This document shows, in pieces, positions 128 to 53,015 of a stretch of DNA of 53,728 nucleotides; the stretch's first letter is position 1, and each line of letters opens with the position of its first letter. The position numbers were made by a program, and so were the translations under genes. The stretch comes from Escherichia phage ES2-BCU-3: sequence record PV733669.1. One strand, given 5' to 3'. The notes below the pieces were generated by a model that did not search any database, was not told where the DNA came from, and saw only the letters and a program-made list of their open reading frames with translations.

Positions 128-344
128 CGGTGCACAGTTAATACTTGCGGCTCTCGAAGAGCATGCTAAAGGTACACTCCGTGTTGACAACATGTTTATC
201 AGTACAATCAAAGAAGCAGGTCCAAGTGATATATTAATGGACCGTAGCAAATTAATGATGTACATTGATAGCGACTTCACTTATAATGATGAATATGTTG
301 ATAACAAATCTGTGCTGATACAGCGTTACCGGAGTGTAAAATGA
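1..344 (+). CDS. Dihydrofolate reductase, 3' portion (same frame as 53274..53601 across the wrap-around)
   Basis: Frame is continuous with the ORF at the window end; contains VWVVGGAQL resembling the DHFR GGxxxY region; stop TGA at 342..344 overlaps the next ATG (ATGA). Confidence 0.7.
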   Translation, partial: PMTAHRILLPVSHSILASEGYNNIGELAAALEDRGSDVWVVGGAQLILAALEEHAKGTLRVDNMFISTIKEAGPSDILMDRSKLMMYIDSDFTYNDEYVDNKSVLIQRYRSVK

Positions 345-2043: not shown

Positions 2044-2072
2044 TTTACATATCCTTTCTACCTCGTTATAAT
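2044..2072 (+). promoter_or_regulatory. Sigma70-like promoter (TTTACA-17-TATAAT)
   Basis: TTTACA at 2044..2049 and TATAAT at 2067..2072 with 17-nt spacer; -10/start region flanked by inverted repeat cctcgt(2061)/acgagg(2091). Confidence 0.55.
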
Positions 2073-5418: not shown

Positions 5419-5447
5419 TTTACTTTATGCTTACTGGGTTATATAAT
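5419..5447 (+). promoter_or_regulatory. Sigma70-like promoter (TTTACT-17-TATAAT)
   Basis: TTTACT 5419..5424, TATAAT 5442..5447; followed by the structured GC-rich leader 5455..5529. Confidence 0.45.
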
Positions 5448-5591
5448 CCGTTTTGTCAACCGCGCAACAGCCGGCCACGAGAGTCTGCAGGGCTCAGTGG
5501 ATTTCGGATGGCTGGCTGCGCGGTTTGACCCAAACCTGTTCGGAGCCCACTTGAGTGGATTGAGCCCCTCTCATATAGGATTGAAAATATT

Positions 5592-7289: not shown

Positions 7290-7308
7290 ACCCACAAACG
7301 GGACTAAC

Positions 7309-7340
7309 AAAAGGCGTGCTGACGAGCACGCCTTTTTTAT
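7309..7340 (+). terminator. Rho-independent terminator
   Basis: Stem ggcgtgct(7313..7320), loop gacg, stem agcacgcc(7325..7332), then TTTTTTAT. Confidence 0.8.
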
Positions 7341-7368
7341 TTACAGCAATAAAGTTCTGGTGTATAAT
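7340..7368 (+). promoter_or_regulatory. Sigma70-like promoter with extended -10 (TTTACA-17-TGtTATAAT)
   Basis: TTTACA 7340..7345; TG at 7361..7362; TATAAT 7363..7368. Confidence 0.55.
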
Positions 7369-12801: not shown

Positions 12802-12830
12802 TTTACATGGTTGAAGCGCCAGCTTATAAT
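12802..12830 (+). promoter_or_regulatory. Sigma70-like promoter (TTTACA-17-TATAAT) with -10 inside a palindrome
   Basis: TTTACA 12802..12807, TATAAT 12825..12830; 8-bp perfect inverted repeat gcgccagc(12816..12823)/gctggcgc(12833..12840) brackets the -10. Confidence 0.55.
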
Positions 12831-12864
12831 AGGCTGGCGCACATCCAATAAGAGGATTCTCCAG

Positions 12865-15393: not shown

Positions 15394-15419
15394 CCAGGCA
15401 ATAAACATTTTCTTGGCCA

Positions 15420-15448
15420 TTTACACAGACTTTATTCCTGTGTATAAT
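15420..15448 (+). promoter_or_regulatory. Sigma70-like promoter with extended -10 (TTTACA-17-TGtTATAAT)
   Basis: TTTACA 15420..15425; TGTGTATAAT 15439..15448. Confidence 0.55.
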
Positions 15449-15480
15449 GGCCGGAAAGTCCACCCCATGAGGTAAACAAG

Positions 15481-28132: not shown

Positions 28133-28147
28133 GGGCCCTTTATTTTA
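28118..28147. terminator. Bidirectional rho-independent terminator between convergent genes
   Basis: Stem aaagggccc(28118..28126)/gggcccttt(28133..28141), 6-nt loop, flanked by A- and T-runs; the o-spanin stop codon (28130..28132) lies in the loop. Confidence 0.75.
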
Positions 28148-28369
28148 TCGCTTGGCTTTGCGTTCGTTAAAGTTGGCGCAGTGAGAACAAAGTACTGTAC
28201 CGGCAATCAGCTCACGACGCTTTGACTCAATAGGTTCGCCACACTGATAACAATCAATAGGACTCACACCTTTATATTGCACGCGACTTGCTATTGCTGC
28301 ATCACGTGCAATCTGCTCAGCATCCGATGCCATATCGTTAACGTCTGAAGTGCGGGTAGTCTCAATCAT
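28145..28369 (-). CDS. DksA/TraR-type C4 zinc-finger protein
   Basis: 74 aa with CYQC...(17)...CSHC near the C-terminus, the TraR/DksA zinc-finger spacing. Confidence 0.5.
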   Translation of the reverse strand: MIETTRTSDVNDMASDAEQIARDAAIASRVQYKGVSPIDCYQCGEPIESKRRELIAGTVLCSHCANFNERKAKR

Positions 28370-33541: not shown

Positions 33542-33570
33542 ATTATACTACATCACTCTCTAGGGGTAAA
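33542..33570 (-). promoter_or_regulatory. Sigma70-like promoter (TTTACC-17-TATAAT), minus strand
   Basis: Reverse complement of ggtaaa(33565..33570) and attata(33542..33547). Confidence 0.5.
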
Positions 33571-33600
33571 GCACTTTTTTATATTCGGGTAAAAGAAAAA

Positions 33601-33624
33601 GGACCAGCGCAAACTGGTCCTTTT
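33601..33624 (-). terminator. Rho-independent terminator (works on either strand)
   Basis: Stem ggaccag(33601..33607)/ctggtcc(33614..33620), loop cgcaaa; minus-strand reading is followed by TTTTTCTTTT. Confidence 0.7.
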
Positions 33625-34087
33625 GGCAGGGCTGGATGATTACACAAGGAGTAGAAACAATGCAACTGTCAACGTCATGCACTTCCGGTACACTTGCTGT
33701 GCGCTCTCCTCGGCGAAGTATATAGCGTTACACTTATCACAAGGATTAAGAGAAGAGCACACAGCAAGTAACCAGCTTAGTTGTGGTGTTTCAGCGACCT
33801 GGTGTTATTGTGGATAACCTGCCATCCCGCGAGGATGTCAAAAAGGAAAATGCCAAAACACCACAACTAAATTGGTTGACCGCCATCTACATCCGGCGCC
33901 AGGGTCAAGGTAGCGAGCCAATACCCCTTATGGCGTCCTGGGACTCAAACCCAGGCATCATGGCATTTCCCAAATCTCGGTCAGCGAGCAGAATTGAACT
34001 GCATTCACTGGACACCCTCACTGAACACCAACGCACCAGGCTTAATCAGTTTGTTGAAAAGGAGAGTTGTAAGGATGTCCATTGAAT

Positions 34088-34123: not shown

Positions 34124-34594
34124 TTATTCTGCGTCGTTGTCAACGTCAGTTTCGGTATTACCGCCAGCCAGTGCAGCCGCTTCAGCTTTAGCAGCTTCGG
34201 CTTTCTGACGAGCTTTTTCAGCTTTCTCTTCAGCTTTGCGAATCTGCTCAGCAGCTTTCGCTTCGGCTTTTTCAGCTTTAGCTTTAGCACGCGCTTCAGC
34301 TTTCAGACGCTTCTCTTCGGCTTTAGCCGCATCACGTTCTGCTTTCGCAGTATCGATGCGTTTAGCCAGAACTTTACCGGTCGCTTTACGCCAGTAGGTC
34401 AGCTGAGAAGAAACGGTGCCGCGGGACATTTCGGTTTGTGCAACCACTTTGTCCATAACGTCAGAGCTGGATTCGCCTGCTTCGTGTGCCTGGTCAGCCA
34501 GGTCCCAAACAAAACGCGCACCAGTGCCAGCTGCCGGGTACATAACGCCGTTTACTTCTTCTTTACCAGATACAAAAGTCAGTTTCTCGCTCAT
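34124..34594 (-). CDS. Ala/Lys/Glu-rich low-complexity protein
   Basis: 156 aa; C-terminal half is near-repetitive KAE/AKA helix (AKAEEKRLKAEARAKAKAEKAEAKAAEQ...); GAGGA RBS; own promoter. Confidence 0.55.
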   Translation of the reverse strand: MSEKLTFVSGKEEVNGVMYPAAGTGARFVWDLADQAHEAGESSSDVMDKVVAQTEMSRGTVSSQLTYWRKATGKVLAKRIDTAKAERDAAKAEEKRLKAEARAKAKAEKAEAKAAEQIRKAEEKAEKARQKAEAAKAEAAALAGGNTETDVDNDAE

Positions 34595-34639: not shown

Positions 34640-34668
34640 AGTATAACCCTTTTAAAAAAGTATGTACA
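34640..34668 (-). promoter_or_regulatory. Early-type promoter (GTGTACATA -35 region, TATACT -10), minus strand
   Basis: Minus strand reads GTGTACATAC-N15-TATACT; tgtaca at 34663..34668, agtata at 34640..34645. Confidence 0.5.
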
Positions 34669-36570: not shown

Positions 36571-36628
36571 TTAACGTCTCCTCACTTAATATAGACATTA
36601 TATCACTTCCATGTGATAACGTACACTT

Positions 36629-38639: not shown

Positions 38640-38669
38640 ATTATACGCCACTTTTTATCGCGGCGTAAA
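38640..38669 (-). promoter_or_regulatory. Sigma70-like promoter (TTTACG-18-TATAAT), minus strand
   Basis: Reverse complement of cgtaaa(38664..38669) and attata(38640..38645). Confidence 0.45.
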
Positions 38670-38674
38670 CGTTT

Positions 38675-39565
38675 TTATTCGCCGGATTCTTCTTCGGCTT
38701 TAGCCTGTTCAGCCGCCTTCTTGGCAATCCAAGCCATATGCCTTTCTTTCGATTCATCTGAACCGATTTTGGTAACACCACCTGGGTCAGTGTTATTCGC
38801 TTGTTCTGCTTCACGCCCAGTCATAAGCACATAGCTATCAGACTCAGCATGGTAGTACCAAAGCTGATAAGGATGATACCCCTGCAGCTTGTCGTAAATC
38901 CAGCCGAGGTTAGCAGGTTCACGTGCATCCAGCTCACGGCCTGGTGCGTTACGACACTTAGCTTCCCATTGGAAGTCAGGTTGTGTCTGCAGGTAACGTT
39001 CACAGTTACCATCCTTGTCAGGTGCAGTCATGCGTAAAGCAAGTACAGCATCCATAAGATAAGGAAGTTGTTTCGGTAACTGCTGACCAGGCATGAGAGG
39101 CGAATAAAGCATTGCACCGGTAACTTCATCTTTATTCTTCTCCAGCTTACAAAGGTAAGCAACGCTGAAAGGCAGGTCACGGAACTGACGCATGATATAC
39201 ATCATCTTGTCGTTCGTGTTACCATACGCCTGGCGTTTGTCATTGACCTGAGTCTTCTCATAGTCAAGACATACTTCAGCGACGTCAGAAAGAGAATCGA
39301 AGATAAGGTGCTTGTACTTCTTCGCTTCTTTGCTTTCAGTTAGCCATTTGTACAGGTCCAGAATATCCTGGAACTTACCAATGGGAGTTGAGTCAATGTC
39401 TGCATCAGCTACAGACATCAAGCCACCTTCAGCATCGATGATAAGCACTTCACCGTGAGGCAGTGTTTTAGCCAGGCTGGTCTTACCTACACCAGACTGG
39501 CCGTACACCGCAACCTTTGGCAGTTTGTTTTCAACTGCCGATTTGGTAGAGCGGATTTGTACCAT
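38675..39565 (-). CDS. RecA-like AAA ATPase (Sak4-type recombination protein, putative)
   Basis: Walker A GQSGVGKTS near the N-terminus, Walker B-like LIFDSL; sits beside SSB-like and nuclease genes. Confidence 0.55.
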   Translation of the reverse strand: MVQIRSTKSAVENKLPKVAVYGQSGVGKTSLAKTLPHGEVLIIDAEGGLMSVADADIDSTPIGKFQDILDLYKWLTESKEAKKYKHLIFDSLSDVAEVCLDYEKTQVNDKRQAYGNTNDKMMYIMRQFRDLPFSVAYLCKLEKNKDEVTGAMLYSPLMPGQQLPKQLPYLMDAVLALRMTAPDKDGNCERYLQTQPDFQWEAKCRNAPGRELDAREPANLGWIYDKLQGYHPYQLWYYHAESDSYVLMTGREAEQANNTDPGGVTKIGSDESKERHMAWIAKKAAEQAKAEEESGE

Positions 39566-39795
39566 TAATGATAGTCCTCGTATAACATTTCAGTGTCAGC
39601 GTACATCAGATAAAGTGCCTCGACGGCATCGTCCAGACTCTCGAATTGTTCACCGCAAACGTAGAACTCGGACACTCCGTCTTGTGGGTAACGTTCTTCA
39701 ACTACCCAGTCATGACGAATACCGTAAGTCCAATAGTCACAGGCTTCACCTGCTTTCAGTTTACGGGTGGCTTTGAATTGGTTGAGTGTTAACAT
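39565..39795 (-). CDS. Hypothetical protein
   Basis: 76 aa; GAGGAG RBS; own promoter. Confidence 0.5.
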   Translation of the reverse strand: MLTLNQFKATRKLKAGEACDYWTYGIRHDWVVEERYPQDGVSEFYVCGEQFESLDDAVEALYLMYADTEMLYEDYH

Positions 39796-39821: not shown

Positions 39822-39851
39822 ATTATACCCCACTTACATGGGGTATGTACA
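39822..39851 (-). promoter_or_regulatory. Early-type promoter (GTGTACATA -35 region, TATAAT -10), minus strand
   Basis: Minus strand reads GTGTACATAC-N16-TATAAT; tgtaca 39846..39851, attata 39822..39827. Confidence 0.5.
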
Positions 39852-41680: not shown

Positions 41681-41710
41681 ATTATATCACTAGTTAGTGG
41701 TGATGTATAC
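41681..41710 (-). promoter_or_regulatory. Early-type promoter (GTATACAT -35 region, extended -10), minus strand
   Basis: Minus strand reads GGTATACATCA-N-TAGTGATATAAT; gtatac 41705..41710, attata 41681..41686. Confidence 0.45.
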
Positions 41711-42908: not shown

Positions 42909-43179
42909 TACTTGTTTCCTCGTCAGGAGTAGATTGAACTGGCAACAGCACAGCCAGATAGTTATTGTATGCTTCCCGGAACAGAGCTATCGCTTTGCTT
43001 CGCTTGAGCTCTATTATACCATTAGTGGTATGCACACGTAAAACATTATTTTTCTGCTTGCCAATCCCCTTAACGAGGAACTCAATCTTGCGAACATCTT
43101 CAAGCATGATGATGTCGATTGTGCCGCCCCATTCGTCACTACCTTCGGGCTTGGCTTGGTGCATGAATGCAAAATTCAA
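42769..43179 (-). CDS. Hypothetical protein (3' end overlaps neighbour)
   Basis: 136-aa ORF whose C-terminal 45 aa are low-complexity and overlap the start of 42456..42908; one boundary is probably wrong. Confidence 0.35.
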   Translation of the reverse strand: MNFAFMHQAKPEGSDEWGGTIDIIMLEDVRKIEFLVKGIGKQKNNVLRVHTTNGIIELKRSKAIALFREAYNNYLAVLLPVQSTPDEETSNDQTNTGSNGTADNGTAAGQPVQPEQVDGEGEGRPGASAPDNQVSS

Positions 43180-44573: not shown

Positions 44574-45025
44574 TTGTAAATGTCCATCCAGTTACGATAC
44601 TCGTCATAAAAGTGCGGCCACTCTTCTGTGGGATGCAGTTTAATAGATACACCGTTAACCAGATGCAATGTGTAGGTCTGGCGATTGACGTACATGATGT
44701 TACTGTACGGGAAGATATTGCCTGCAGTGTCGGTGAAGTAAGTTGGTGTGTTGTGTAACACTTCTGCCAACGCAACTAACTGGTCCAGCTCAGCACTGTA
44801 GTGTTCACGATTAAAAGACACAGCAGTATTATCACCTTCAGTTACTGAGTCAGTTGTTAACCAACCACGAATAGGAATACCTGCCGCATCTTTTTCAATT
44901 GTAATGTCCTTAATATCGGACGAACGAAAAGTCATACGGGTTACAAACTCGTCGTCTTCCTTTTTGGTGCGACGAATCACGATTGAATGGTACATTGATT
45001 GTGTCTCCTCGTTGTTAATCTTCAT
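44570..45025 (-). CDS. Hypothetical protein (first gene of the long minus-strand cluster)
   Basis: 151-aa ORF, ATGA-coupled to the downstream gene. Confidence 0.5.
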   Translation of the reverse strand: MKINNEETQSMYHSIVIRRTKKEDDEFVTRMTFRSSDIKDITIEKDAAGIPIRGWLTTDSVTEGDNTAVSFNREHYSAELDQLVALAEVLHNTPTYFTDTAGNIFPYSNIMYVNRQTYTLHLVNGVSIKLHPTEEWPHFYDEYRNWMDIYK

Positions 45026-45066
45026 TTATTATGCATATAAAGGAGGGACATGTACATAGATAATTT

Positions 45067-45119
45067 AGTATAAAATACTTAAAAGTCTATGTACACTGAT
45101 GTCTTTTTGGTTATATAAT
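45067..45119. promoter_or_regulatory. Divergent promoter pair sharing a palindromic TGTACA -35 element
   Basis: TGTACA at 45090..45095; plus-strand TATAAT at 45114..45119 (18-nt spacer); minus-strand TATACT is the reverse complement of 45067..45072 (17-nt spacer); second TGTACA at 45051..45056. Confidence 0.5.
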
Positions 45120-45147
45120 GGAGGTCCGCTAAAAGAGGAGAGTCACA

Positions 45148-45480
45148 ATGATTAAGCCAAAGCTGTTACGGCACATTCGTAACGGTGTTAAACTGCTTGC
45201 CGAAGGAAATGAGTATACTTGCAAGCAACGAGGTATCACAAAAGTCGGTCTATTTAATAAAGAACTGCCAATGCGATATTTCACCAAGTCACCATTGACC
45301 CTGGTTCCTGCAGCAGAGTATTACAAAGACCCCGAAGCAGCACGTGCAAAGATTAAGGATGCACTTGATTTGCTTGTCGAGGAAGGCTACTTGACTATTC
45401 GTCAACACACTGAATCATCTTTCTATTATAAGCCAACCCTCAAGGTAACCAGCAATGACAATGACGAGTCAGCCGAGTGA
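45148..45480 (+). CDS. Hypothetical protein
   Basis: 110-aa ORF with AGAGGAG RBS. Confidence 0.5.
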   Translation: MIKPKLLRHIRNGVKLLAEGNEYTCKQRGITKVGLFNKELPMRYFTKSPLTLVPAAEYYKDPEAARAKIKDALDLLVEEGYLTIRQHTESSFYYKPTLKVTSNDNDESAE

Positions 45481-47983
45481 TATTTTAGGGCTGAAGTTCT
45501 TCAAACCAGAAGGCATCCCTCAAGTCTTCAAAGATATGAAGCGCTGGGGTATCTTCGAATTAACGTACGAAGACGATAAGCTCGAAGTACAATCAAAACC
45601 TAAGAAACCGGCAAGGGCCCCGTCCGGGCGTTCCTTTAGCACCACTGTACCTGAAGAGTGGATGACATTCGACGAAGCATTGAATCGATGCATTCGCAAC
45701 CGTGAGATGAAGATTAAAGCTGTACAGGGTAATATAACCTTTGTACCAGCATTGATTGTTCCTCGCCAATGGTACTTTGTTGACCTGGACAACCATGAAG
45801 ACAACCCAGATATTGAGGCAACCCACAAAGCCATAATTGAAGGGACTCGCGGTGCTTATGCTGAGACATCTATCTCGGGTAAAGGTCAGCACATCGCTAT
45901 ACCATTACCATGGACTGCAGCAACGTCCAAAGAGAAAGACGACCTGCTGGACATCAAAATCCAGAAGGCTGAGATGTTCCTGGTAATGACAGGTAACGTG
46001 TTGAGTGAGTTCAATGCCAACCCTGTATCAGCCAAGCAATGGCATGAAGCTATTGAGCGATTCTTCCGTGATGCTTCAGCTCCTGATATTGATGTACAGT
46101 TTGAGCAAGACCCTGACCTGGGTGAAGAGCATGACAAAGAGCTGTATGCTCAGTTAGCCGAGAATACTCGTTGGGCATTAGAACACCCAATGAATGAGCA
46201 TGCACCTGATGGTGTTGGTGTAAGTAATGATGGTTCCGAACGTCTTAGCCGTATATTGAAAGACTTACTTCGTGTTACCCGTAATTACGAAGTCACACAG
46301 CGCATCTTTATGTCAAGTGCTGCAGCTCAGTACTCAGGACGACGTGCAAGCCGTATCAATTTGAGTGAGACACAATATCTGCAATGGTTCAGCCGTGTAG
46401 GTAAGACTGTACTCAAAGAGATGCAACGTGACGGACTGTTTGTCAAGACTGCATTTGCTCTGGACATTAACAAAGAGCTGATGAAGAAGTCTGGCATTAA
46501 ACTTGCCGACAATGTAGAGTTCAAGGTTGATGAAGACATTCTACCGTCTGAAGAGTTTGTACGTACAGCCCCAACAGGTTTCAAAGCTCTTATCGCCGAA
46601 GTGCAAAGCAATATTGCACCAAGCAAACGAGTGAATGACTACGCCATCGGCACCGCACTCAATATCCTGAGTAACTGTGCAGGACGCAAGTATGTTTGCC
46701 CTGTTGAAGGTCATGCAAACTTCCTGGTGACTAACATCATCCTTGTGGGTGGTTCATCTATCGGTAAGTCACTTTATACCGAGATGTTCCCGCAGATTCA
46801 GGCCGGCCTTCCAGAAGGTTCACCGCTGAGTCTGTTACGCATACCCCGTGAGCAGACGTTTGCAACCAGGACATTCGCCGAGATGATGGCTAACCCGTCA
46901 TTCCACTCGGTACAACTGTTCTACCCTGAATTTGGCCTGGCATTAGGTTCTGGTTTACGCATGAACCCTAACAACCCAGACAACTTCCAGAAGGCTTTAA
47001 TGGATGCTTCAACCAAGCGTAAGGTTGGCGGTATCTTAACAGGCATTAAACGTGCCAATGCTGAGAATGATGTTAAGGCGGTTCACGAACCTTGTTACTC
47101 TATCTTTGGTGACTCGACTCAAGAGCTTATCCTTGACAACACTCGTAAGCAAGACTTCTCATCTGGCTTCTTACCTCGCTTCCTGTTCATTCCGAACTAC
47201 GAACGAGCAGACTTTGCACAACCTGAGAAGGTAGGACGCCGTAAAGAAGTTCGCCGAGTACAGTTCAGCAAGGATATGATTGAACAGCTCGAGGCAATTG
47301 CTTATGTCAATGCTATTCCACCAAACGGACGGCTGAGACACGAACCAATCGCCATTTACGATGAGTCCGACGATGATGACATCTTGTATGAGTACCAATG
47401 CAAGATTAATGACATGCGTCGCTACTATCGTGATAACGAAGTTGCATCAGCCTTTGTGGGTCGTATGGGAGAATATGTCTTCAATATCGCCTCACTAATT
47501 GGCTTGCTTGATAATTGGGACAATCCTGTAATGACTCGTGATAACATTGAATGGGCATACAAATATGTTCTTCGTTGTATCACAGCCTGGGTTAACAATG
47601 CCAGCAAGGTAATTGCTCCACCTACAACTGACGCTGAAGTGGTTGACGGCTTCCTCAAAGTGTATCGGGACCTTTTGGCCCAGTACAACAAGAAAGGCTG
47701 GAAAGGTATTGTCAAGCATTATCCTGATAACATTGTACGCAATCTCAAGGAAGACCACCTCAAGATGAATGGCTTATCAATATATGCTATTCGTCAAAGT
47801 ATGGGCTGGTTTAAGACTTCTTACAACTTTGAGATTAAGAACAAGGCAATTGACGGCATGCTCAAGGATATGATAGACCAGGACTACCTTGCTGTCCAAG
47901 TATATAAGCCACCCACAGGTAAGTCGTCCAATTTGTACTGCTTAACTGAACGCGGTTACTCAGAAGCCAAGAAACTTAAATAA
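45455..47983 (+). CDS. Primase-helicase (AEP-type primase/polymerase domain fused to SF3-type helicase)
   Basis: N-terminal VDLDNH and SGKGQHIAIP resemble the archaeo-eukaryotic primase catalytic core; C-terminal P-loop VGGSSIGKS with downstream acidic motifs typical of D5/SF3 helicases. Confidence 0.6.
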   Translation: MTMTSQPSDILGLKFFKPEGIPQVFKDMKRWGIFELTYEDDKLEVQSKPKKPARAPSGRSFSTTVPEEWMTFDEALNRCIRNREMKIKAVQGNITFVPALIVPRQWYFVDLDNHEDNPDIEATHKAIIEGTRGAYAETSISGKGQHIAIPLPWTAATSKEKDDLLDIKIQKAEMFLVMTGNVLSEFNANPVSAKQWHEAIERFFRDASAPDIDVQFEQDPDLGEEHDKELYAQLAENTRWALEHPMNEHAPDGVGVSNDGSERLSRILKDLLRVTRNYEVTQRIFMSSAAAQYSGRRASRINLSETQYLQWFSRVGKTVLKEMQRDGLFVKTAFALDINKELMKKSGIKLADNVEFKVDEDILPSEEFVRTAPTGFKALIAEVQSNIAPSKRVNDYAIGTALNILSNCAGRKYVCPVEGHANFLVTNIILVGGSSIGKSLYTEMFPQIQAGLPEGSPLSLLRIPREQTFATRTFAEMMANPSFHSVQLFYPEFGLALGSGLRMNPNNPDNFQKALMDASTKRKVGGILTGIKRANAENDVKAVHEPCYSIFGDSTQELILDNTRKQDFSSGFLPRFLFIPNYERADFAQPEKVGRRKEVRRVQFSKDMIEQLEAIAYVNAIPPNGRLRHEPIAIYDESDDDDILYEYQCKINDMRRYYRDNEVASAFVGRMGEYVFNIASLIGLLDNWDNPVMTRDNIEWAYKYVLRCITAWVNNASKVIAPPTTDAEVVDGFLKVYRDLLAQYNKKGWKGIVKHYPDNIVRNLKEDHLKMNGLSIYAIRQSMGWFKTSYNFEIKNKAIDGMLKDMIDQDYLAVQVYKPPTGKSSNLYCLTERGYSEAKKLK

Positions 47984-47989
47984 ATACAA

Positions 47990-48027
47990 GGGCTTAGGTG
48001 TTATATGCATCTAAGTCCTTCTTTTTT
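47990..48027 (+). terminator. Rho-independent terminator
   Basis: Stem gggcttag(47990..47997)/ctaagtcc(48011..48018) with one G-U pair, 13-nt loop, then TTCTTTTTT. Confidence 0.55.
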
Positions 48028-48034
48028 AAGCTCT

Positions 48035-48342
48035 TTTTTCCGGCGGAGGCAATGCATATAATCATATATTTGAATATATATCACTTAAACCTTTGTTTTA
48101 TATACTCTTTTCGAATCCATAATCCATATAGCTTTCTTTAAATAATTAAGGGGGTAATAAGGGTACACAAGACCAGATAAAGGGGTAGATATTATTATTT
48201 ATTTATTATATATATTATATATATTTATATATTAGATAAAGAGTAAGTAAAACAGCTACTTAGAAGGCTAGAATCCATATTCACGGGAATATAGTTATAT
48301 GGATTACAGACCGGATAAAGAAAATCCTCCGCCGGCGGAAAA
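48035..48342. other. AT-rich block bounded by inverted repeats (candidate replication origin)
   Basis: Inverted repeats tttttccggcggagg(48035..48049) and cctccgccggcggaaaa(48326..48342); a 45-bp run of only A/T (48191..48235); internal aatccatat/atatggatt inverted repeats; two AGGGGTA direct repeats. Confidence 0.45.
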
Positions 48343-48379
48343 TTTAAAAAAGTCGGATTGCTAAATAAATTCGTAGACG

Positions 48380-48408
48380 TTTACACTGTGATTAATATGT
48401 AGTACAAT
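48380..48408 (+). promoter_or_regulatory. Sigma70-like promoter (TTTACA-17-TACAAT)
   Basis: TTTACA 48380..48385; TACAAT 48403..48408. Confidence 0.45.
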
Positions 48409-48458
48409 AATCACCAATATCCCAAATTAGCAGAATTTTCAACAGGATTGAATACAAT

Positions 48459-48887
48459 ATGGTTAACATTCGAGTAAAAGGCCAAAACTTTGAGCGTAAA
48501 ATGGCAAAAAAATTCAATGAATCATTTGGATTGAGTGTTGAACGCAATCTTCAACAGTCTATTAATGGCGGGGATGACTTACTCGGGGTACCGTTTTTCA
48601 GCGTTGAGCTTAAAAAACACAATACAAAAGCCATCGGTACGTGGTGGCGTCAATGTGAGGAGTCAGCAAAGCGTCATGATAAGACGCCTGTACTAATATA
48701 CGAACTTCCACGCCAAAAGCCAGTCGTTGTAATGCGACGCAGTGACGTGGATGTTGGTATATTACCACTTGGTACAACTTTCAAAGAGGCAACTAACAGG
48801 CTCTTTGTGGGCTTGGTAGAGCTAACATGGGAACAATTTTGCCAGGTCTACAACTTTTACGTTGCGCCTGGCGTTGATGTCAGTTAA
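48459..48887 (+). CDS. Hjc-like Holliday junction resolvase (PD-(D/E)XK), putative
   Basis: KGQNFERKMAKKF...G and DDLLGVPFFSVELKK parallel archaeal Hjc motifs KGxxxER and D...ExK. Confidence 0.5.
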   Translation: MVNIRVKGQNFERKMAKKFNESFGLSVERNLQQSINGGDDLLGVPFFSVELKKHNTKAIGTWWRQCEESAKRHDKTPVLIYELPRQKPVVVMRRSDVDVGILPLGTTFKEATNRLFVGLVELTWEQFCQVYNFYVAPGVDVS

Positions 48888-49426: not shown

Positions 49427-49448
49427 AATCGGCCTCCTTGTGGGTTAA

Positions 49449-49493
49449 TTCAATCATGAGGACTTTCATCAAATCCTCATTGTTGAATTACTC
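49449..49493 (-). promoter_or_regulatory. Conserved-flank intergenic hairpin (early operon element 1)
   Basis: Minus strand reads GAGTAA-TTCAACA-[ATGAGGA...TCCTCAT]-GATTGAA; 7-bp stem between the upstream stop and the next RBS. Confidence 0.5.
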
Positions 49494-49793: not shown

Positions 49794-49818
49794 GTTTCTC
49801 TCCTCAGTGATATTAATC

Positions 49819-49839
49819 AAGTCCCGGATACCGAGACTT
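49819..49839 (-). promoter_or_regulatory. Intergenic hairpin (early operon element 2)
   Basis: 9-bp stem aagtcccgg/ccgagactt with 3-nt loop; lies upstream of the 49793 start. Confidence 0.4.
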
Positions 49840-49847
49840 TGTTAATT

Positions 49848-50048
49848 TCACTCAATCATCACCTGAGCTACTATTATACACTCTTTATTGAATCTGGTAA
49901 ACACTTTACCTGCATTGGTACGTTTTGCACCAGCTTTTAATGCAGTTTGTGTCCAGACATTCCACTCTTCAGTTGTCAAAAATTGTTGGTCAACTTTTGG
50001 AGGTAACTGTTGAGCTATATGAACTGTAGTAAATTTGATTAATGGCAT
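49848..50048 (-). CDS. Hypothetical protein
   Basis: ATG at 50048 (MPLIKF...), 10-nt overlap with the upstream gene; track ORF starts at 50078. Confidence 0.4.
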   Translation of the reverse strand: MPLIKFTTVHIAQQLPPKVDQQFLTTEEWNVWTQTALKAGAKRTNAGKVFTRFNKECIIVAQVMIE

Positions 50049-50275: not shown

Positions 50276-50296
50276 GTTTCTTCTCCTGTTGAATAA

Positions 50297-50347
50297 TTTC
50301 AATCATGAACTATCGCAACTTTGATAGTTCATTGTTGAAACTATTGC
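50297..50347 (-). promoter_or_regulatory. Conserved-flank intergenic hairpin (early operon element 3)
   Basis: Minus strand reads TAG-TTTCAACA-[ATGAACTATC...GATAGTTCAT]-GATTGAAA; 10-bp stem 50305..50314/50323..50332. Confidence 0.5.
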
Positions 50348-50774: not shown

Positions 50775-50796
50775 GTTTTTTACTCCTGTTGATTAA

Positions 50797-50842
50797 TAAT
50801 TTCAATCCAGACCTCTCGTAAGAGGTCTGTCAGAAATTACTC
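50797..50842 (-). promoter_or_regulatory. Conserved-flank intergenic hairpin (early operon element 4)
   Basis: Minus strand reads GAGTAA-TTTCTGAC-[AGACCTCT-UACG-AGAGGTCT]-GGATTGAAA; 9-bp stem 50808..50816/50821..50829. Confidence 0.5.
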
Positions 50843-51455: not shown

Positions 51456-51501
51456 TCCAATCATGACAACTTTGGTAAGTTGTCATTGTTGGAAATTACT
51501 C
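51456..51501 (-). promoter_or_regulatory. Conserved-flank intergenic hairpin (early operon element 5)
   Basis: Minus strand reads GAGTAA-TTTCCAACA-[ATGACAACTT-ACCA-AAGTTGTCAT]-GATTGGA; stem 51464..51472/51477..51485; a second palindrome ttgtcaa/ttgacaa lies at 51433..51451. Confidence 0.5.
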
Positions 51502-51645: not shown

Positions 51646-51675
51646 AATAGTCACCTCATGTATTAGTTTCCAGGT

Positions 51676-51699
51676 GTGACTACTGTTACCAATAGTCAC
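51676..51699 (-). promoter_or_regulatory. Leader hairpin with the same 5' flank as the intergenic hairpins
   Basis: Minus strand reads GTAATAGTTTCAACCA-[GTGACTA...TAGTCAC]; 7-bp stem 51676..51682/51693..51699. Confidence 0.4.
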
Positions 51700-51886
51700 T
51701 GGTTGAAACTATTACTTGTGTTACTATCAACAAGAAACATGTTAACCAGATTGTTAAAGAGCAAAAGACACCATTGACCATCTACCAGATGTGTCTGTTG
51801 ACTGGTTGAGTACTAACAACATAAGTAACTACATAAATCCTCCTGAACCATTCTTGTGTTGAATTGTTCAACACATTCAATAAATA

Positions 51887-51916
51887 TATAATAGTCCAAT
51901 CGCTATTGATTGTACA
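51887..51916 (-). promoter_or_regulatory. Candidate early promoter for the minus-strand small-gene operon
   Basis: TTGTACATAAA at 51910..51920 matches the recurring GTGTACATA -35 region; TATATA/TATTAT -10-like hexamers 17-18 nt away on the minus strand. Confidence 0.35.
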
Positions 51917-51966
51917 TAAAAGAATTGCAAGTTAGTGCAAGTATTTAGAAACGATAATCACTTGCG

Positions 51967-52226
51967 GTTGATAGTGGTTCTCGATTACAATTGATATAGT
52001 TACTCGAGTAATCACTTCGTTTGAAATGGTCGGCAGGGGTTATAGTTACATAGGGGTGCTATCTAATAGGGCCGGCGAAATTATTTATAAAAATATAATT
52101 TCAATCTGAATTGTAGACGCTTTGAACTACTTCGGCCGAAACTGCTACACGGGTAATAGTTACTCTGGTAATGATTGCGTTGGTAATAGTTCACAACGAA
52201 ATAGGGTGCGGGGGGTATAATCACTC
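51967..52226. repeat. Iteron-like array of about 13-bp direct repeats (consensus GGTAATAGTTACTC)
   Basis: Copies at 51993..52005 (gatatagttactc), 52039..52049 (gttatagttac), 52152..52165 (ggtaatagttactc), 52182..52194 (ggtaatagttcac); degenerate copies at 51967, 52006, 52167, 52214; inverted copy at 51707..51715; AT-rich tract 52081..52100. Confidence 0.55.
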
Positions 52227-52412
52227 TGTGTGACCAATTTTAAGCGCCGACGGATTTTTTTATTTTTTGCTCCTTTTTAGACTCCTAGTACTCAATCATC
52301 ATCATATCAATCACGATTGTGTTACCATAAAGCCTTTTGTACAGAAATTGGAGGCCCCTCCAAAAATTTTTTATATTTTTCTGGAATTGTGTAGACATCT
52401 GTTAAAAAGTGG

Positions 52413-52441
52413 TGTACTTTTTTCTCACCACGCGCTATCAT
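52413..52441 (+). promoter_or_regulatory. Early-type promoter (GGTGTACT -35 region, TATCAT -10)
   Basis: TGTACT 52413..52418, 17-nt spacer, TATCAT 52436..52441; -35 inside inverted repeat gtggtg/caccac. Confidence 0.45.
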
Positions 52442-52505
52442 TAATTATCATCAACAACGACGTGTCAACGGACTTGCCTTGACCGTCCCTACTTGTGGGT
52501 TACAT

Positions 52506-53015
52506 ATGGAACTAGTCACTTTGACTCCGTATCCTCCGCAATTAGCTGTTGTGCTGAGTAAAAAACAGCATGATGAGCTGATTAAAGAGATGGATTTGCC
52601 TCCTTTTGGCCACTGGGAGGATGAATTTCCTGTCGCTGCAACAACTTTTACCTTCAACCGTAAGAGCTATCCCTATTGCTTTATAGTCGTAGAGCTCTAC
52701 CTCCCGGACGACCTCCGCTACAATACCATATCCCACGAAGGCATCCATGTCATGTCGTCATTAATGAAGTATGTCGGTCTTAAGTACGACGCAGATAACG
52801 ACGAATGGTATGCTTATCAGCATGATTTTATCGTAAACGCCATTTGTAAGGCTCATGACGAGTATATAAAGGCCAAAAAAGAGCAAGAAATTGCTCCAAA
52901 ACGCATAGAAACGGGCAATCATCCGTCTCTTGATGACACTCCACCTTGGCCTGAGCATGACCCAATGAAGGCCTTACTTTCCGAACCATCATCACAGGAT
53001 TTTTTAAATGACTGA
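52506..53015 (+). CDS. HExxH zinc metallopeptidase-like protein (putative)
   Basis: Contains HEGIH, a zincin-type HExxH motif; ATG at 52506 (track ORF starts at TTG 52479). Confidence 0.45.
   Translation: MELVTLTPYPPQLAVVLSKKQHDELIKEMDLPPFGHWEDEFPVAATTFTFNRKSYPYCFIVVELYLPDDLRYNTISHEGIHVMSSLMKYVGLKYDADNDEWYAYQHDFIVNAICKAHDEYIKAKKEQEIAPKRIETGNHPSLDDTPPWPEHDPMKALLSEPSSQDFLND

What the first reader, a model, noticed from the sequence alone, without database searches (positions are those of the whole stretch)
45045..45120. Early promoter family with a GTGTACATA -35 region, including a palindromic TGTACA shared by divergent promoters
The 9-mer TATGTACAC (GTGTACATA on the minus strand) recurs at 34661, 39844 and 45087, each 17-18 nt from a TATAAT/TATACT hexamer and upstream of minus-strand genes. 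Variants occur at 41705 (GTATACAT), 51911 (TTGTACATA) and 52413 (GGTGTACT). At 45090..45095 the palindromic TGTACA is positioned to serve as the -35 for both the plus promoter (TATAAT 45114..45119) and the minus promoter (TATACT 45067..45072). A second copy at 45051..45056 lies in the minus leader. Conservation beyond the hexamer suggests a regulator or sigma-appropriation site over these -35 regions.
Basis: seen in the sequence. Interest (0 to 1): 0.5.

Follow-up and report, generated by a model that had tools for sequence, protein, structure and literature searches.

The report
Host-type promoter family of a Salmonella phage
The repeated GTGTACATA word is the -35 part of about twenty ordinary host-RNA-polymerase promoters spread over this Salmonella phage genome, so it is a real but unsurprising signal, not a special regulator site.

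Summary
The window is a complete Loughboroughvirus genome, 98% identical to Salmonella phage S144. TATGTACAC occurs exactly three times (34661, 39844, 45088), always in intergenic DNA, 17-18 nt from TATAAT/TATACT and facing a gene.

It is a subset of a larger family: T(G/T/A)TACN-N17/18-TATAAT occurs 13 times against 0.17 expected. About 20 such sites sit mostly 25-35 nt upstream of start codons in every gene cluster, structural genes included. None has the canonical TTGACA.

In 10 related genomes, orthologous promoters swap TGTACA, TTTACA and TATACT. This fits a degenerate sigma-70 -35 element like T4's early GTTTAC. It does not fit a palindromic operator or a MotA-type box, which sits 12 bp from the -10.

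The "shared palindrome" partner (TATACT) occurs only in the closest relatives.

Two subclasses exist. Replication/early promoters have an A-tract, G at -36, G or T at -34 and an AT-rich discriminator. Structural promoters have ATTTAC and a GC-rich discriminator. Some promoters carry covarying hairpins. No start sites have been mapped. Interest is low to moderate.

The parts
45090..45119 (+). Promoter P_D for the ORF68-primase operon: -35 TGTACA (45090-45095), 18-nt spacer, -10 TATAAT (45114-45119), start codon at 45148.
   Evidence: Conserved in 9 genomes with a diverged spacer; the -35 is TGTACA, TTTACT or TTTACA.
45028..45056 (-). Promoter P2 for the first gene of the minus-strand replication cluster: -35 TGTACA (45056->45051), 17-nt spacer, -10 CATAAT (45033->45028). 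The likely true start codon at 44995 is preceded by GAGGAG.
   Evidence: The whole block is nearly invariant in 9 genomes. The -35 is TGTACA in the window, ZCSE2 and L009, and TTTACT in the other relatives. The -10 lies 32 nt from the start codon, the usual distance for this family.
45067..45095 (-). It is lineage-specific.
   Evidence: The -10 degenerates to TATACA or AATACT in relatives, and the -35 is absent where P_D has TTTACT.
34640..34668 (-). Promoter with GTGTACATA: TGTACA-17-TATACT, preceded by AAAAAAGATG, upstream of gene 34124-34594.
   Evidence: Orthologs have TGTACA, TTTACA or TGTACT.
39822..39851 (-). Promoter with GTGTACATA: TGTACA-18-TATAAT, upstream of gene 39565-39795. The spacer forms the hairpin ATACCCCA/TGGGGTAT.
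   Evidence: z = -3.5. TGTAC is kept in all 11 genomes.
36597..36625 (-). The spacer holds a covarying hairpin with loop ATGGAA.
41681..41709 (-). Variant promoter TATACA-17-TATAAT (GTATACAT), with a TGn extended -10.
38640..38669 (-). SSB-gene promoter TTTACG-18-TATAAT with the hairpin TACGCC/GGCGTA. The -35 is TGTACA in Erwinia SOI901 and L017.
   Evidence: (z = -5.2).
33542..33570 (-). Promoter TTTACC-17-TATAAT preceded by AAAAAAGTG.
43013..43042 (-). Promoter inside a gene, TTTACG-18-TATAAT (TGn). It is annotated as a promoter in Klebsiella phage AEV23.
51888..51916 (-). Promoter TGTACA-17-TATTAT facing the small-gene cluster 51645->48880.
   Evidence: Conserved in KE25 (with TATAAT) and in KM.
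52413..52441 (+). Promoter TGTACT-17-TATCAT upstream of the Ku-like gene at 52506.
259..287 (+). Promoter inside a gene, TGTACA-17-TATAAT, upstream of the thymidylate kinase gene (start 341).
   Evidence: Conserved in ciri.
48380..48408 (+). Promoter TTTACA-17-TACAAT upstream of the resolvase gene.
49873..49901 (-). Promoter inside a gene, TTTACC-17-TATAAT, in the small-gene cluster.
2044..2072 (+). Structural-class promoter GTTTACA-17-TATAAT with a GC-rich discriminator (small terminase gene).
5419..5447 (+). Structural-class promoter ATTTACT-17-TATAAT (scaffold gene, long structured leader).
7340..7368 (+). Structural-class promoter ATTTACA-17-TATAAT, directly after the capsid-gene terminator.
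12802..12830 (+). Structural-class promoter ATTTACA-17-TATAAT, with the -10 inside the loop of GCGCCAGC/GCTGGCGC.
15420..15448 (+). Structural-class promoter ATTTACA-17-TATAAT (sheath gene). The whole promoter folds as a 16-bp hairpin.
   Evidence: (z = -6.1).

Best explanation
GTGTACATA is the -35 region of host sigma-70-type promoters. The phage encodes no RNA polymerase. Its genes are preceded by about 20 promoters built as (G/A) T (G/T/A) T A C (A/T/G/C), then 17-18 bp, then TATAAT. Most lie 25-35 nt upstream of a start codon that has a Shine-Dalgarno sequence.

Host RNA polymerase holoenzyme is inferred to bind these directly: sigma region 4 on T-K-TAC-A and region 2 on TATAAT. In the replication-cluster promoters, alpha-CTD is inferred to bind an AAAAAARNR-like A-tract at about -46 to -38.

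In the 45026-45147 gap, two back-to-back promoters fire in opposite directions. P_D (plus strand) drives the primase operon. P2 (minus strand) drives the replication cluster. Each has its own TGTACA, 39 bp apart. Use of the 45090 palindrome by a third, minus-strand promoter (P1) is possible in this lineage only.

Shown here: motif statistics, placement, orientation and evolutionary conservation. Inferred: recognition by sigma-70, the transcription start sites and the timing of expression.
For: The composite motif occurs 13 times against 0.17 expected. The TGTACA subtype occurs 5 times against 0.06. There are no hits at wrong spacings.

Of the 39 TATAAT copies in the genome, those in intergenic gaps that face a gene almost all have [AG]T[GT]TAC 17-18 nt upstream. 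TATAAT copies inside coding sequence do not, apart from three likely internal promoters.

The distance from the -10 to the start codon is 25-35 nt for most sites.

Each orthologous promoter is retained in up to 11 genomes, down to Erwinia phage SOI901 (43% primase identity). Spacers and flanks diverge while T-N-TAC and TATAAT stay fixed.

The base at -34 switches between G, T and A in orthologs, as expected for a tolerant -35 position.

T4 early promoters have GTTTAC at -36 to -31 plus extra consensus (PMC1524935, PMC2988021).

Cluster-C promoters score 6-8 of 8 against the UP proximal consensus; the null probability of a score of 6 or more is 0.05 (consensus from PMC4132738).

The S144 authors found no phage RNA polymerase and also assumed host RNAP (PMC7432712).

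Distant helicase relatives with other hosts lack the motif.
Against: No transcription start site or RNAP-binding data exist for this phage group.

TGTACA matches TTGACA at only 4 of 6 positions, and none of the roughly 20 sites has the canonical G at the third position. This is unusual for a set of plain sigma-70 promoters and could reflect an extra constraint.

TGTACA is kept in all 11 genomes at the 39851 promoter (TGTACT in ciri), so G at -34 is not merely tolerated there.

The same core drives replication and structural genes, so temporal control is left unexplained.

PhagePromoter annotation of S144 did not call the three GTGTACATA sites.
Confidence: 0.8

Rival explanations
1. The TGTACA core is an operator. 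A phage- or host-encoded dimeric regulator binds the palindrome over the -35 regions and controls the divergent promoters and the other copies together.
For: TGTACA is palindromic. Two copies lie in inverted orientation 39 bp apart at 45051 and 45090, as TGTACATAGA / TCTATGTACA. TGTACA is strictly conserved at the 39851 promoter across 11 genomes. The P2 block next to it is unusually invariant.
Against: Orthologous sites replace TGTACA with the non-palindromic TTTACT, TTTACA or TATACT while keeping position and spacing. The flanks are asymmetric (G upstream, T/A downstream), so the symmetry does not extend beyond 6 bp. TGTACA is not enriched genome-wide. Pfam and PHROGs found no DNA-binding regulator among 30 small proteins; the only hit was a TraR/DksA zinc finger, which binds RNAP and not DNA.
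Confidence: 0.07
2. This is a sigma-appropriation-type system. A phage activator plus an anti-sigma-like co-factor replaces region 4 / -35 recognition at GTGTACATA, like MotA/AsiA at T4 middle promoters.
For: The -35 deviates systematically from TTGACA, with T and never G at the third position. The genes served are replication and nucleotide-metabolism genes, the class that is 'middle' in T4. Many small early proteins have no known function.
Against: The MotA box lies 12+-1 bp from the -10 and replaces the -35 (PMC2988021). Here the motif is at the canonical 17-18 bp. The same core precedes the presumed earliest genes (51916) and the structural genes. TTTACA, a 5-of-6 sigma-70 -35, substitutes freely for TGTACA in orthologs. 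No AsiA or MotA family hit was found.
Confidence: 0.04
3. These are dual-coded elements, in addition to being promoters. At some sites the -35 (TAC) and the -10 (G-TA) are bridged by a selected hairpin in the sense strand. This could process, stabilise or insulate read-through transcripts, or make promoter use depend on structure. The G/T choice at -34 and the bases just after the hexamer would then be partly shaped by pairing.
For: Spacer inverted repeats reach p<0.05 in 5 of 20 promoters, where about 1 is expected. RNAfold z-scores are -3.5 to -6.1 for 39851, 38669, 15420 and 12802. In the helicase-promoter hairpin, 3 of 6 pairs show compensatory changes and one pair shows four Watson-Crick types; the covariation score is 0.60 against 0.185, and 0 of 500 shuffles reach it. 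The SSB-promoter stem is 100% paired, and the sixth -35 base covaries with -14. The G.U wobbles fall on the sense strand.
Against: Only a subset of promoters has this feature. The three sites at the focus of the finding (45090, 45056, 34668) show no significant fold, with z-scores of -0.6 to +0.6. At 39851 the stem is degraded in L008, ciri and L009. There are few independent lineages, with 5 distinct sequences per test. No function is known.
Confidence: 0.3
4. The word recurs by chance, or the sites are paralogous leftovers with no function.
For: The 9-mer with one mismatch is at chance level (17 against 16.8). TGTACA is at the expected frequency.
Against: The composite motif is about 80-fold enriched and shows strict spacing, orientation and intergenic placement. 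It is also conserved in orthologs against diverged flanks.
Confidence: 0.02

Closest known systems
Bacteriophage T4 early promoters (UP / -35 GTTTAC / TGn / -10 'uber' sigma-70 promoters)
   Same: Both are read by unmodified host sigma-70 RNAP. The -35 region is GTTTAC at -36 to -31, with T instead of the canonical G at -33 (PMC1524935). Here it is (G/A)T(T/G)TAC. Both have extra consensus outside the hexamers and A-rich UP-like tracts (PMC2988021). Both have a near-perfect TATAAT.
   Different: Here -34 is often G (TGTACA) or A. A TGn extended -10 is present in only about 3 of 20 sites. The same core also precedes structural (late) genes, which in T4 use gp55-dependent TATAAATA promoters. The phage is unrelated to T4 (a 53-kb Loughboroughvirus). 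Expression timing is unmeasured.
E. coli sigma-70 -35/-10 promoters with a proximal UP subsite (AAAAAARNR), and TTTACA-type -35 promoters such as lac/lacUV5 (the lac comparison is from my own knowledge)
   Same: The spacer is 17-18 bp, the -10 is TATAAT, and TTTACA matches the -35 consensus at 5 of 6 positions. An A-tract lies at about -46 to -38 in the replication-cluster promoters.
   Different: The phage set never uses TTGACA. The TGTACA form matches at only 4 of 6 positions. The set is far more uniform than host promoters.
T4 middle promoters (MotA box plus AsiA; sigma appropriation)
   Same: Both have a phage-specific conserved word upstream of a sigma-70 -10, in front of replication and nucleotide-metabolism genes.
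   Different: The MotA box (a/t)(a/t)(a/t)TGCTTtA lies 12+-1 bp from the -10; here the motif is 17-18 bp away. The sequence is unrelated, and no MotA or AsiA homologue was detected.
Back-to-back divergent promoter regions in bacteria and phages
   Same: Two conserved promoters fire outward from a gap of about 150 bp that has an AT-rich stretch between the two -35 elements.
   Different: No shared regulator site could be shown. The overlap of the -35 hexamers on a palindrome (P_D/P1) is restricted to one lineage.

Membership tests
Sigma-70 (housekeeping) -35/-10 promoter | -10 hexamer close to TATAAT, with A at -11 and T at -7 | tested here: met
   14 of the 20 sites have exact TATAAT. The other six have TATACT (twice), CATAAT, TACAAT, TATTAT or TATCAT.
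Sigma-70 (housekeeping) -35/-10 promoter | -35 hexamer resembling TTGACA, 17+-1 bp upstream of the -10 | tested here: met
   The spacing is 17 or 18 bp at all sites, with none at other spacings. TTTACA matches at 5 of 6 positions and TGTACA at 4 of 6. The third position is always T, never the consensus G, so the match is partial.
Sigma-70 (housekeeping) -35/-10 promoter | Located upstream of a gene, oriented toward it, and conserved at orthologous positions | tested here: met
Sigma-70 (housekeeping) -35/-10 promoter | Transcription starts 6-9 nt downstream of the -10, and sigma-70 holoenzyme is sufficient | not testable with these tools
   No start-site or in vitro data were found for Loughboroughvirus or Rosemountvirus.
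T4-type early promoter | GTTTAC at -36 to -31 | tested here: inconclusive
   GTTTAC or ATTTAC is present at about half of the sites. The rest have GTGTAC or GTATAC, which differ at -34 (PMC1524935).
T4-type early promoter | A-rich UP element upstream of the -35 | tested here: met
   This holds for the replication-cluster class only, which scores 6-8 of 8 against AAAAAARNR. Structural-class promoters do not differ from background.
T4-type early promoter | Expression immediately after infection, independent of phage protein synthesis | not testable with these tools
   This needs time-course RNA data with and without chloramphenicol.
T4 middle promoter / sigma appropriation | Activator box centred at -30, 12+-1 bp from the -10, replacing the -35 | tested here: not met
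   The motif lies 17-18 bp from the -10 (PMC2988021).
T4 middle promoter / sigma appropriation | Phage encodes AsiA-like and MotA-like proteins | tested here: not met
   Pfam and PHROGs scans of 30 small proteins gave no such family; the only relevant hit was a TraR/DksA zinc finger. Very divergent analogues cannot be excluded.
Palindromic operator for a dimeric regulator | Dyad symmetry extending over about 12-20 bp and shared by all sites | tested here: not met
   The symmetry is limited to the 6-bp TGTACA core and the flanks are asymmetric.
Palindromic operator for a dimeric regulator | The palindrome is conserved at orthologous sites | tested here: not met
   TGTACA becomes TTTACT, TTTACA or TATACT at P_D, P2, 34668 and 36625 in relatives.

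The most novel reading that the evidence does not exclude
The promoters form two separately regulated classes built on one core. The replication/early class has a UP A-tract, G at -36, G/T at -34 and an AT-rich discriminator. The structural class has no UP, ATTTAC and a GC-rich discriminator.

In this reading, timing is set by open-complex kinetics, modulated by the phage TraR/DksA-like protein or an unknown small protein, and not by a new sigma factor or a -35 replacement. At several sites the -35 TAC and the -10 GTA are additionally held in a covarying sense-strand hairpin. The promoter would then double as an RNA or DNA structural switch that couples read-through transcription to internal initiation.
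Probability: 0.15. Interest if true: 0.6.

Novelty: new member of a known kind. Interest (0 to 1): 0.3.

Why it matters
The analysis yields a usable promoter map, with consensus (G/A)T(G/T)TACA-N17/18-TATAAT, for Loughboroughvirus and Rosemountvirus phages. These phages are being developed against Salmonella, E. coli and Klebsiella, and their published annotations rely on generic promoter predictors that missed these sites.

It corrects the architecture of the divergent control region between the primase operon and the replication cluster. It also suggests a corrected start codon for the first cluster gene.

It shows that the whole genome, late genes included, uses one host-type core. This poses a concrete, testable question about how timing is achieved. 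Candidate answers are the UP element, the discriminator composition and the TraR-like protein.

As a mechanism it is not surprising: strong, phage-specific sigma-70 promoters are well known from T4, T5 and T7.

Tried and rejected
1. Enrichment of the word itself. The 9-mer with one mismatch (17 against 16.8) and TGTACA (30 against about 33) are at chance level. Only the composite with spacing is significant.

2. K-mer enrichment in intergenic DNA. It mostly returned AT-rich words and TATAAT, and was not informative for the -35.

3. Search for a regulator. Pfam on 30 proteins and PHROGs on 20 gave no HTH, anti-sigma or MotA/AsiA hit; the only relevant hit was a TraR/DksA zinc finger.

4. Palindromic-operator reading. 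Rejected because of the ortholog swaps and the asymmetric flanks.

5. MotA-box reading. Rejected on spacing. The GTGTGCATA that lies 12 bp from the -10 at 43029 is better explained by TTTACG at 18 bp, which is conserved in relatives.

6. Rfam and tRNA scans of the window found nothing.

7. Literature. No start-site mapping or promoter consensus has been published for this phage group. The S144 and AEV23 papers give only predictor output. The TGTACA+phage+promoter search gave nothing relevant.

8. The metagenome scan for more relatives gave one additional close genome (L017). The rest are distant (33-39% helicase identity) and lack the motif.

9. A small ORF in the conserved P2 block on the plus strand is not conserved (read from the alignment).

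10. The MAFFT alignments A1 and A2 of whole promoter regions put the Erwinia hairpin out of register. I replaced them with fixed-length hairpin alignments.

Full report
**Identity of the window**

The 53,728-bp window is a complete, circularly permuted genome of a Loughboroughvirus. It is 98% identical to Salmonella phage S144 over the tested 4 kb, and its primase is 100% identical to that of phage PK3. I transferred the S144 gene map with an offset of +6311.
- Plus-strand genes for nucleotide metabolism, packaging, structure and lysis run from about 52506 through the window end to 28132.
- A long minus-strand replication cluster runs 45025->28145.
- A short plus-strand primase-resolvase cluster runs 45148-48887.
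- A minus-strand cluster of small genes of unknown function runs 51645->48880.
- Intergenic DNA makes up 7% of the genome.
- The S144 authors found no phage RNA polymerase and assumed host RNAP. Their predicted promoters do not include the three GTGTACATA sites.

**Check of the observation**

That is 3 copies against 0.55 expected, and all three are intergenic.

The word alone is not a strong signal. With one mismatch there are 17 hits against 16.8 expected. TGTACA occurs 30 times against about 33 expected.

The composite is decisive:

| Pattern | Observed | Expected |
|---|---|---|
| TGTACA-N17/18-TATA[AC]T | 5 | 0.06 |
| T[GT]TACN-N17/18-TATAAT | 13 | 0.17 |
| Same hexamers at spacings 12-16 or 19-23 | 0 | 0.69 |
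| TTGACN-N17/18-TATAAT | 0 | 0.07 |

**What it belongs to**

I made an unbiased listing of all 39 TATAAT copies. Those in intergenic gaps that face a gene almost always carry [A/G]T[G/T]TAC 17-18 nt upstream. TATAAT copies inside coding sequence do not, apart from three likely internal promoters.

About 20 sites result.
- Nine have TGTAC: 259, 34668, 36625, 39851, 45056, 45095, 45090, 51916 and 52413.
- One has TATAC: 41709.
- Ten have TTTAC: 2044, 5419, 7340, 12802, 15420, 33570, 38669, 43042, 48380 and 49901.
- The -10 usually ends 25-35 nt before a start codon preceded by a Shine-Dalgarno sequence.

**Comparative evidence**

I compared the window with ten relatives:
- ZCSE2
- SE4
- SE13
- an IMG/VR Rosemountvirus (L008)
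- a metagenomic relative (L009)
- KE25
- ciri
- vB_SE1_KM
- Erwinia phage SOI901
- a second metagenomic genome (L017)

Orthologous promoters keep T-N-TAC, the spacing and TATAAT, while spacers and flanks diverge.

The second hexamer base is interchangeable between orthologs:
- 34668 is TGTACA in Loughboroughvirus, KE25, KM and SOI901, but TTTACA in the core Rosemountviruses.
- 36625 is TGTACG, TGTACT, TATACT or TGTACC.
- 38669 is TTTACG everywhere except SOI901 and L017, where it is TGTACA.
- 39851 keeps TGTAC in all 11 genomes.

This is the behaviour of a tolerant -35 position. A protein reading the TGTACA palindrome would not accept the non-palindromic TTTACT. Distant helicase relatives from other hosts lack the motif entirely.

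**The divergent region 45026-45147**

The alignment of nine genomes shows two conserved promoters.

P_D is on the plus strand: CTA-T(G/T)TAC(A/T), then 18 nt, then TATAAT at 45114-45119, with the start codon 29 nt further on.

P2 is on the minus strand. Its -35 is at 45056->45051 (TGTACA in the window, ZCSE2 and L009; TTTACT in the other relatives that cover it). After a 17-nt spacer comes CATAAT at 45033->45028. The whole P2 block, CCCTCCTTTATATGCATAAT, is almost invariant, even in the Erwinia phage.

Elsewhere its -10 becomes TATACA or AATACT. Where P_D has TTTACT, no minus-strand -35 exists.

The annotated start of the first cluster gene (45025) lies 2 nt after the CATAAT. An ATG there is not conserved in L017, and in SOI901 it is out of frame. 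The start preceded by GAGGAG at 44995 is conserved and lies 32 nt from the P2 -10, the usual distance for this family.

I therefore read the 'second copy in the leader' as the -35 of P2. I treat the shared palindrome as a lineage-specific coincidence or add-on.

**Mechanism**

The best-supported reading is direct recognition by host sigma-70 holoenzyme.

The closest described class is the T4 early promoter. Its -35 region is GTTTAC at -36 to -31, and it shows additional consensus and UP elements (PMC1524935; PMC2988021).

- a purine at -36 (G at 10 and A at 8 of 20 sites) and an A-tract at about -46 to -38;
- in all seven internal replication-cluster promoters, the A-tract matches the UP proximal consensus AAAAAARNR at 6-8 of 8 positions. 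The null probability of 6 or more is 0.05 and of 7 or more is 0.007 (PMC4132738).

Downstream of the hexamer, only a T at the next base is frequent (12 of 20).

A MotA-type box is excluded by position, since it lies 12+-1 bp from the -10. No AsiA, MotA or HTH protein was found among 30 small proteins.

**Two subclasses**

Across all genomes the promoters split by gene cluster.

| Feature | Structural class (5 ortholog groups, 20 distinct sequences) | Other classes (15 groups, 73 distinct sequences) |
|---|---|---|
| Base at -34 | T in 20 of 20 | G 34, T 35, A 4 |
| Base at -36 | A in 17 of 20 | G in 40 of 73 |
| Mean UP score | 3.6 | 6.2 |
| GC in the 6-nt discriminator | 4.1 of 6 | 1.9 of 6 |

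On group means, the Mann-Whitney test gives p = 0.0009 for the discriminator and p = 0.01 for UP.

The difference lies around the core, not in a special TGTACA site. How timing is set is unknown.

The phage encodes a TraR/DksA-type zinc-finger protein at 28145-28369, conserved in KE25 and KM. Such proteins act on RNAP kinetics. A link to the discriminator difference is my speculation.

**Promoter-embedded hairpins**

Five of the 20 promoters have spacer inverted repeats at p<0.05, where about one is expected. Four fold with z-scores of -3.5 to -6.1: 39851, 38669, 15420 and 12802.

In the helicase promoter (36625->36597) the stem around the conserved loop ATGGAA shows compensatory changes at 3 of 6 pairs. 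One pair shows CG, AU, GC and UA. The covariation score is 0.60 against 0.185 for shuffles, and 0 of 500 shuffles reach it.

In the SSB promoter the stem TAC(G/A)CC...GG(C/T)GTA is paired in 100% of cells. The sixth -35 base covaries with -14, and the G.U wobbles fall on the sense strand.

At 39851 the ATA that follows TGTAC pairs with the TAT of the -10.

These stems lie upstream of their own start sites, so they could be transcribed only by read-through. Their role (processing, stability or insulation) is open. The three sites at the centre of the finding (45090, 45056, 34668) show no such fold.

**Verdict**

This is a new, undescribed member of a well-known kind, the strong phage-specific sigma-70 promoters of the T4-early type. 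All functional statements rest on sequence statistics and conservation, because no start-site data exist for this phage group.

Noticed in passing
window 36597-36625 (-), 38640-38669 (-), 39822-39851 (-), 15413-15455 (+), 12816-12841 (+): Several promoters are embedded in hairpins that pair the -35 TAC (or the bases just after it) with G-TA of the -10, or that flank the -10. The stems are kept by compensatory changes across relatives. In the helicase promoter 3 of 6 pairs covary, and one pair shows 4 Watson-Crick types. In the SSB promoter the sixth -35 base covaries with -14. The G.U wobbles are on the sense strand.
   Followed up: partly
all about 20 promoters; structural class at 2044, 5419, 7340, 12802, 15420 versus the rest: There are two promoter subclasses on one core. 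Structural-gene promoters are ATTTAC(A/T), lack a UP-like A-tract and have a GC-rich discriminator (4.1 of 6). Replication/early promoters have G at -36, G/T at -34, an AAAAAARNR-like tract and an AT-rich discriminator (1.9 of 6). The split is conserved across 10 genomes.
   Followed up: partly
window 49446-49490, 50292-50345, 51456-51493, also 49794-49847 and 50775-50836 (minus-strand small-gene cluster): Nearly every gap between the small low-GC genes carries a long imperfect inverted repeat with arms of 17-23 nt, of the type AATTTCAACAATGA...TCATGATTGAAATT. The same 2-nt internal mismatch recurs. This looks like a repeated intergenic RNA stem-loop, such as a processing site or stabiliser.
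   Followed up: no
window 45028-45050: The P2 promoter block CCCTCCTTTATATGCATAAT, which contains the palindrome TATGCATA overlapping the -10, is almost invariant in 9 genomes, including an Erwinia phage. Other promoter spacers diverge freely. An extra constraint such as an operator may act here.
   Followed up: partly
window 44995 vs 45025 (-): The first gene of the replication cluster is annotated in S144 as starting at the ATG 2 nt after the P2 -10. That ATG is absent in L017 and out of frame in SOI901. The ATG preceded by GAGGAG, 30 nt downstream (44995), is conserved and is the likely true start.
   Followed up: partly
window 5454-5591 (+): A 144-nt leader lies between the scaffold-gene promoter and its start codon. 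It is strongly conserved in KE25, KM and Erwinia SOI901 and folds well (-54.7 kcal/mol, z = -3.1). There is no Rfam match. In KE25 and KM part of it is annotated as a 32-aa ORF.
   Followed up: partly
window 51988-52224 within the 860-bp gap 51646-52505; also 48150-48240: Four copies of a GGKTATAGTTAC-like 16-mer, plus a 35-nt duplicated unit, lie in the large low-GC intergenic region. A TATATA-rich tract lies in the 475-bp gap after the primase gene. These are candidate replication-origin iterons or AT-rich unwinding regions.
   Followed up: no
window 7306-7340 (+) and 33580-33620 (-): Intrinsic terminators sit immediately upstream of promoters, with the terminator T-run abutting the -35. This occurs after the major capsid gene and before the 33570 promoter. 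The capsid terminator stem changes by compensatory substitutions among relatives: GGCGTGC/GCACGCC, GGGCAAGC/GCTTGCCC and GGGAACC/GGTTCCC.
   Followed up: no
window 28145-28369 (-): A 74-aa TraR/DksA-type C4 zinc-finger protein is the last gene of the replication cluster. It is conserved in KE25 and KM and is the only recognisable transcription factor in the genome.
   Followed up: no
L016 5192-5352 (Erwinia phage SOI901): At the position where this window has three tiny ORFs (33640-34021), the Erwinia relative carries tRNA-Gln and tRNA-Pro genes. The window itself has no tRNA.
   Followed up: no
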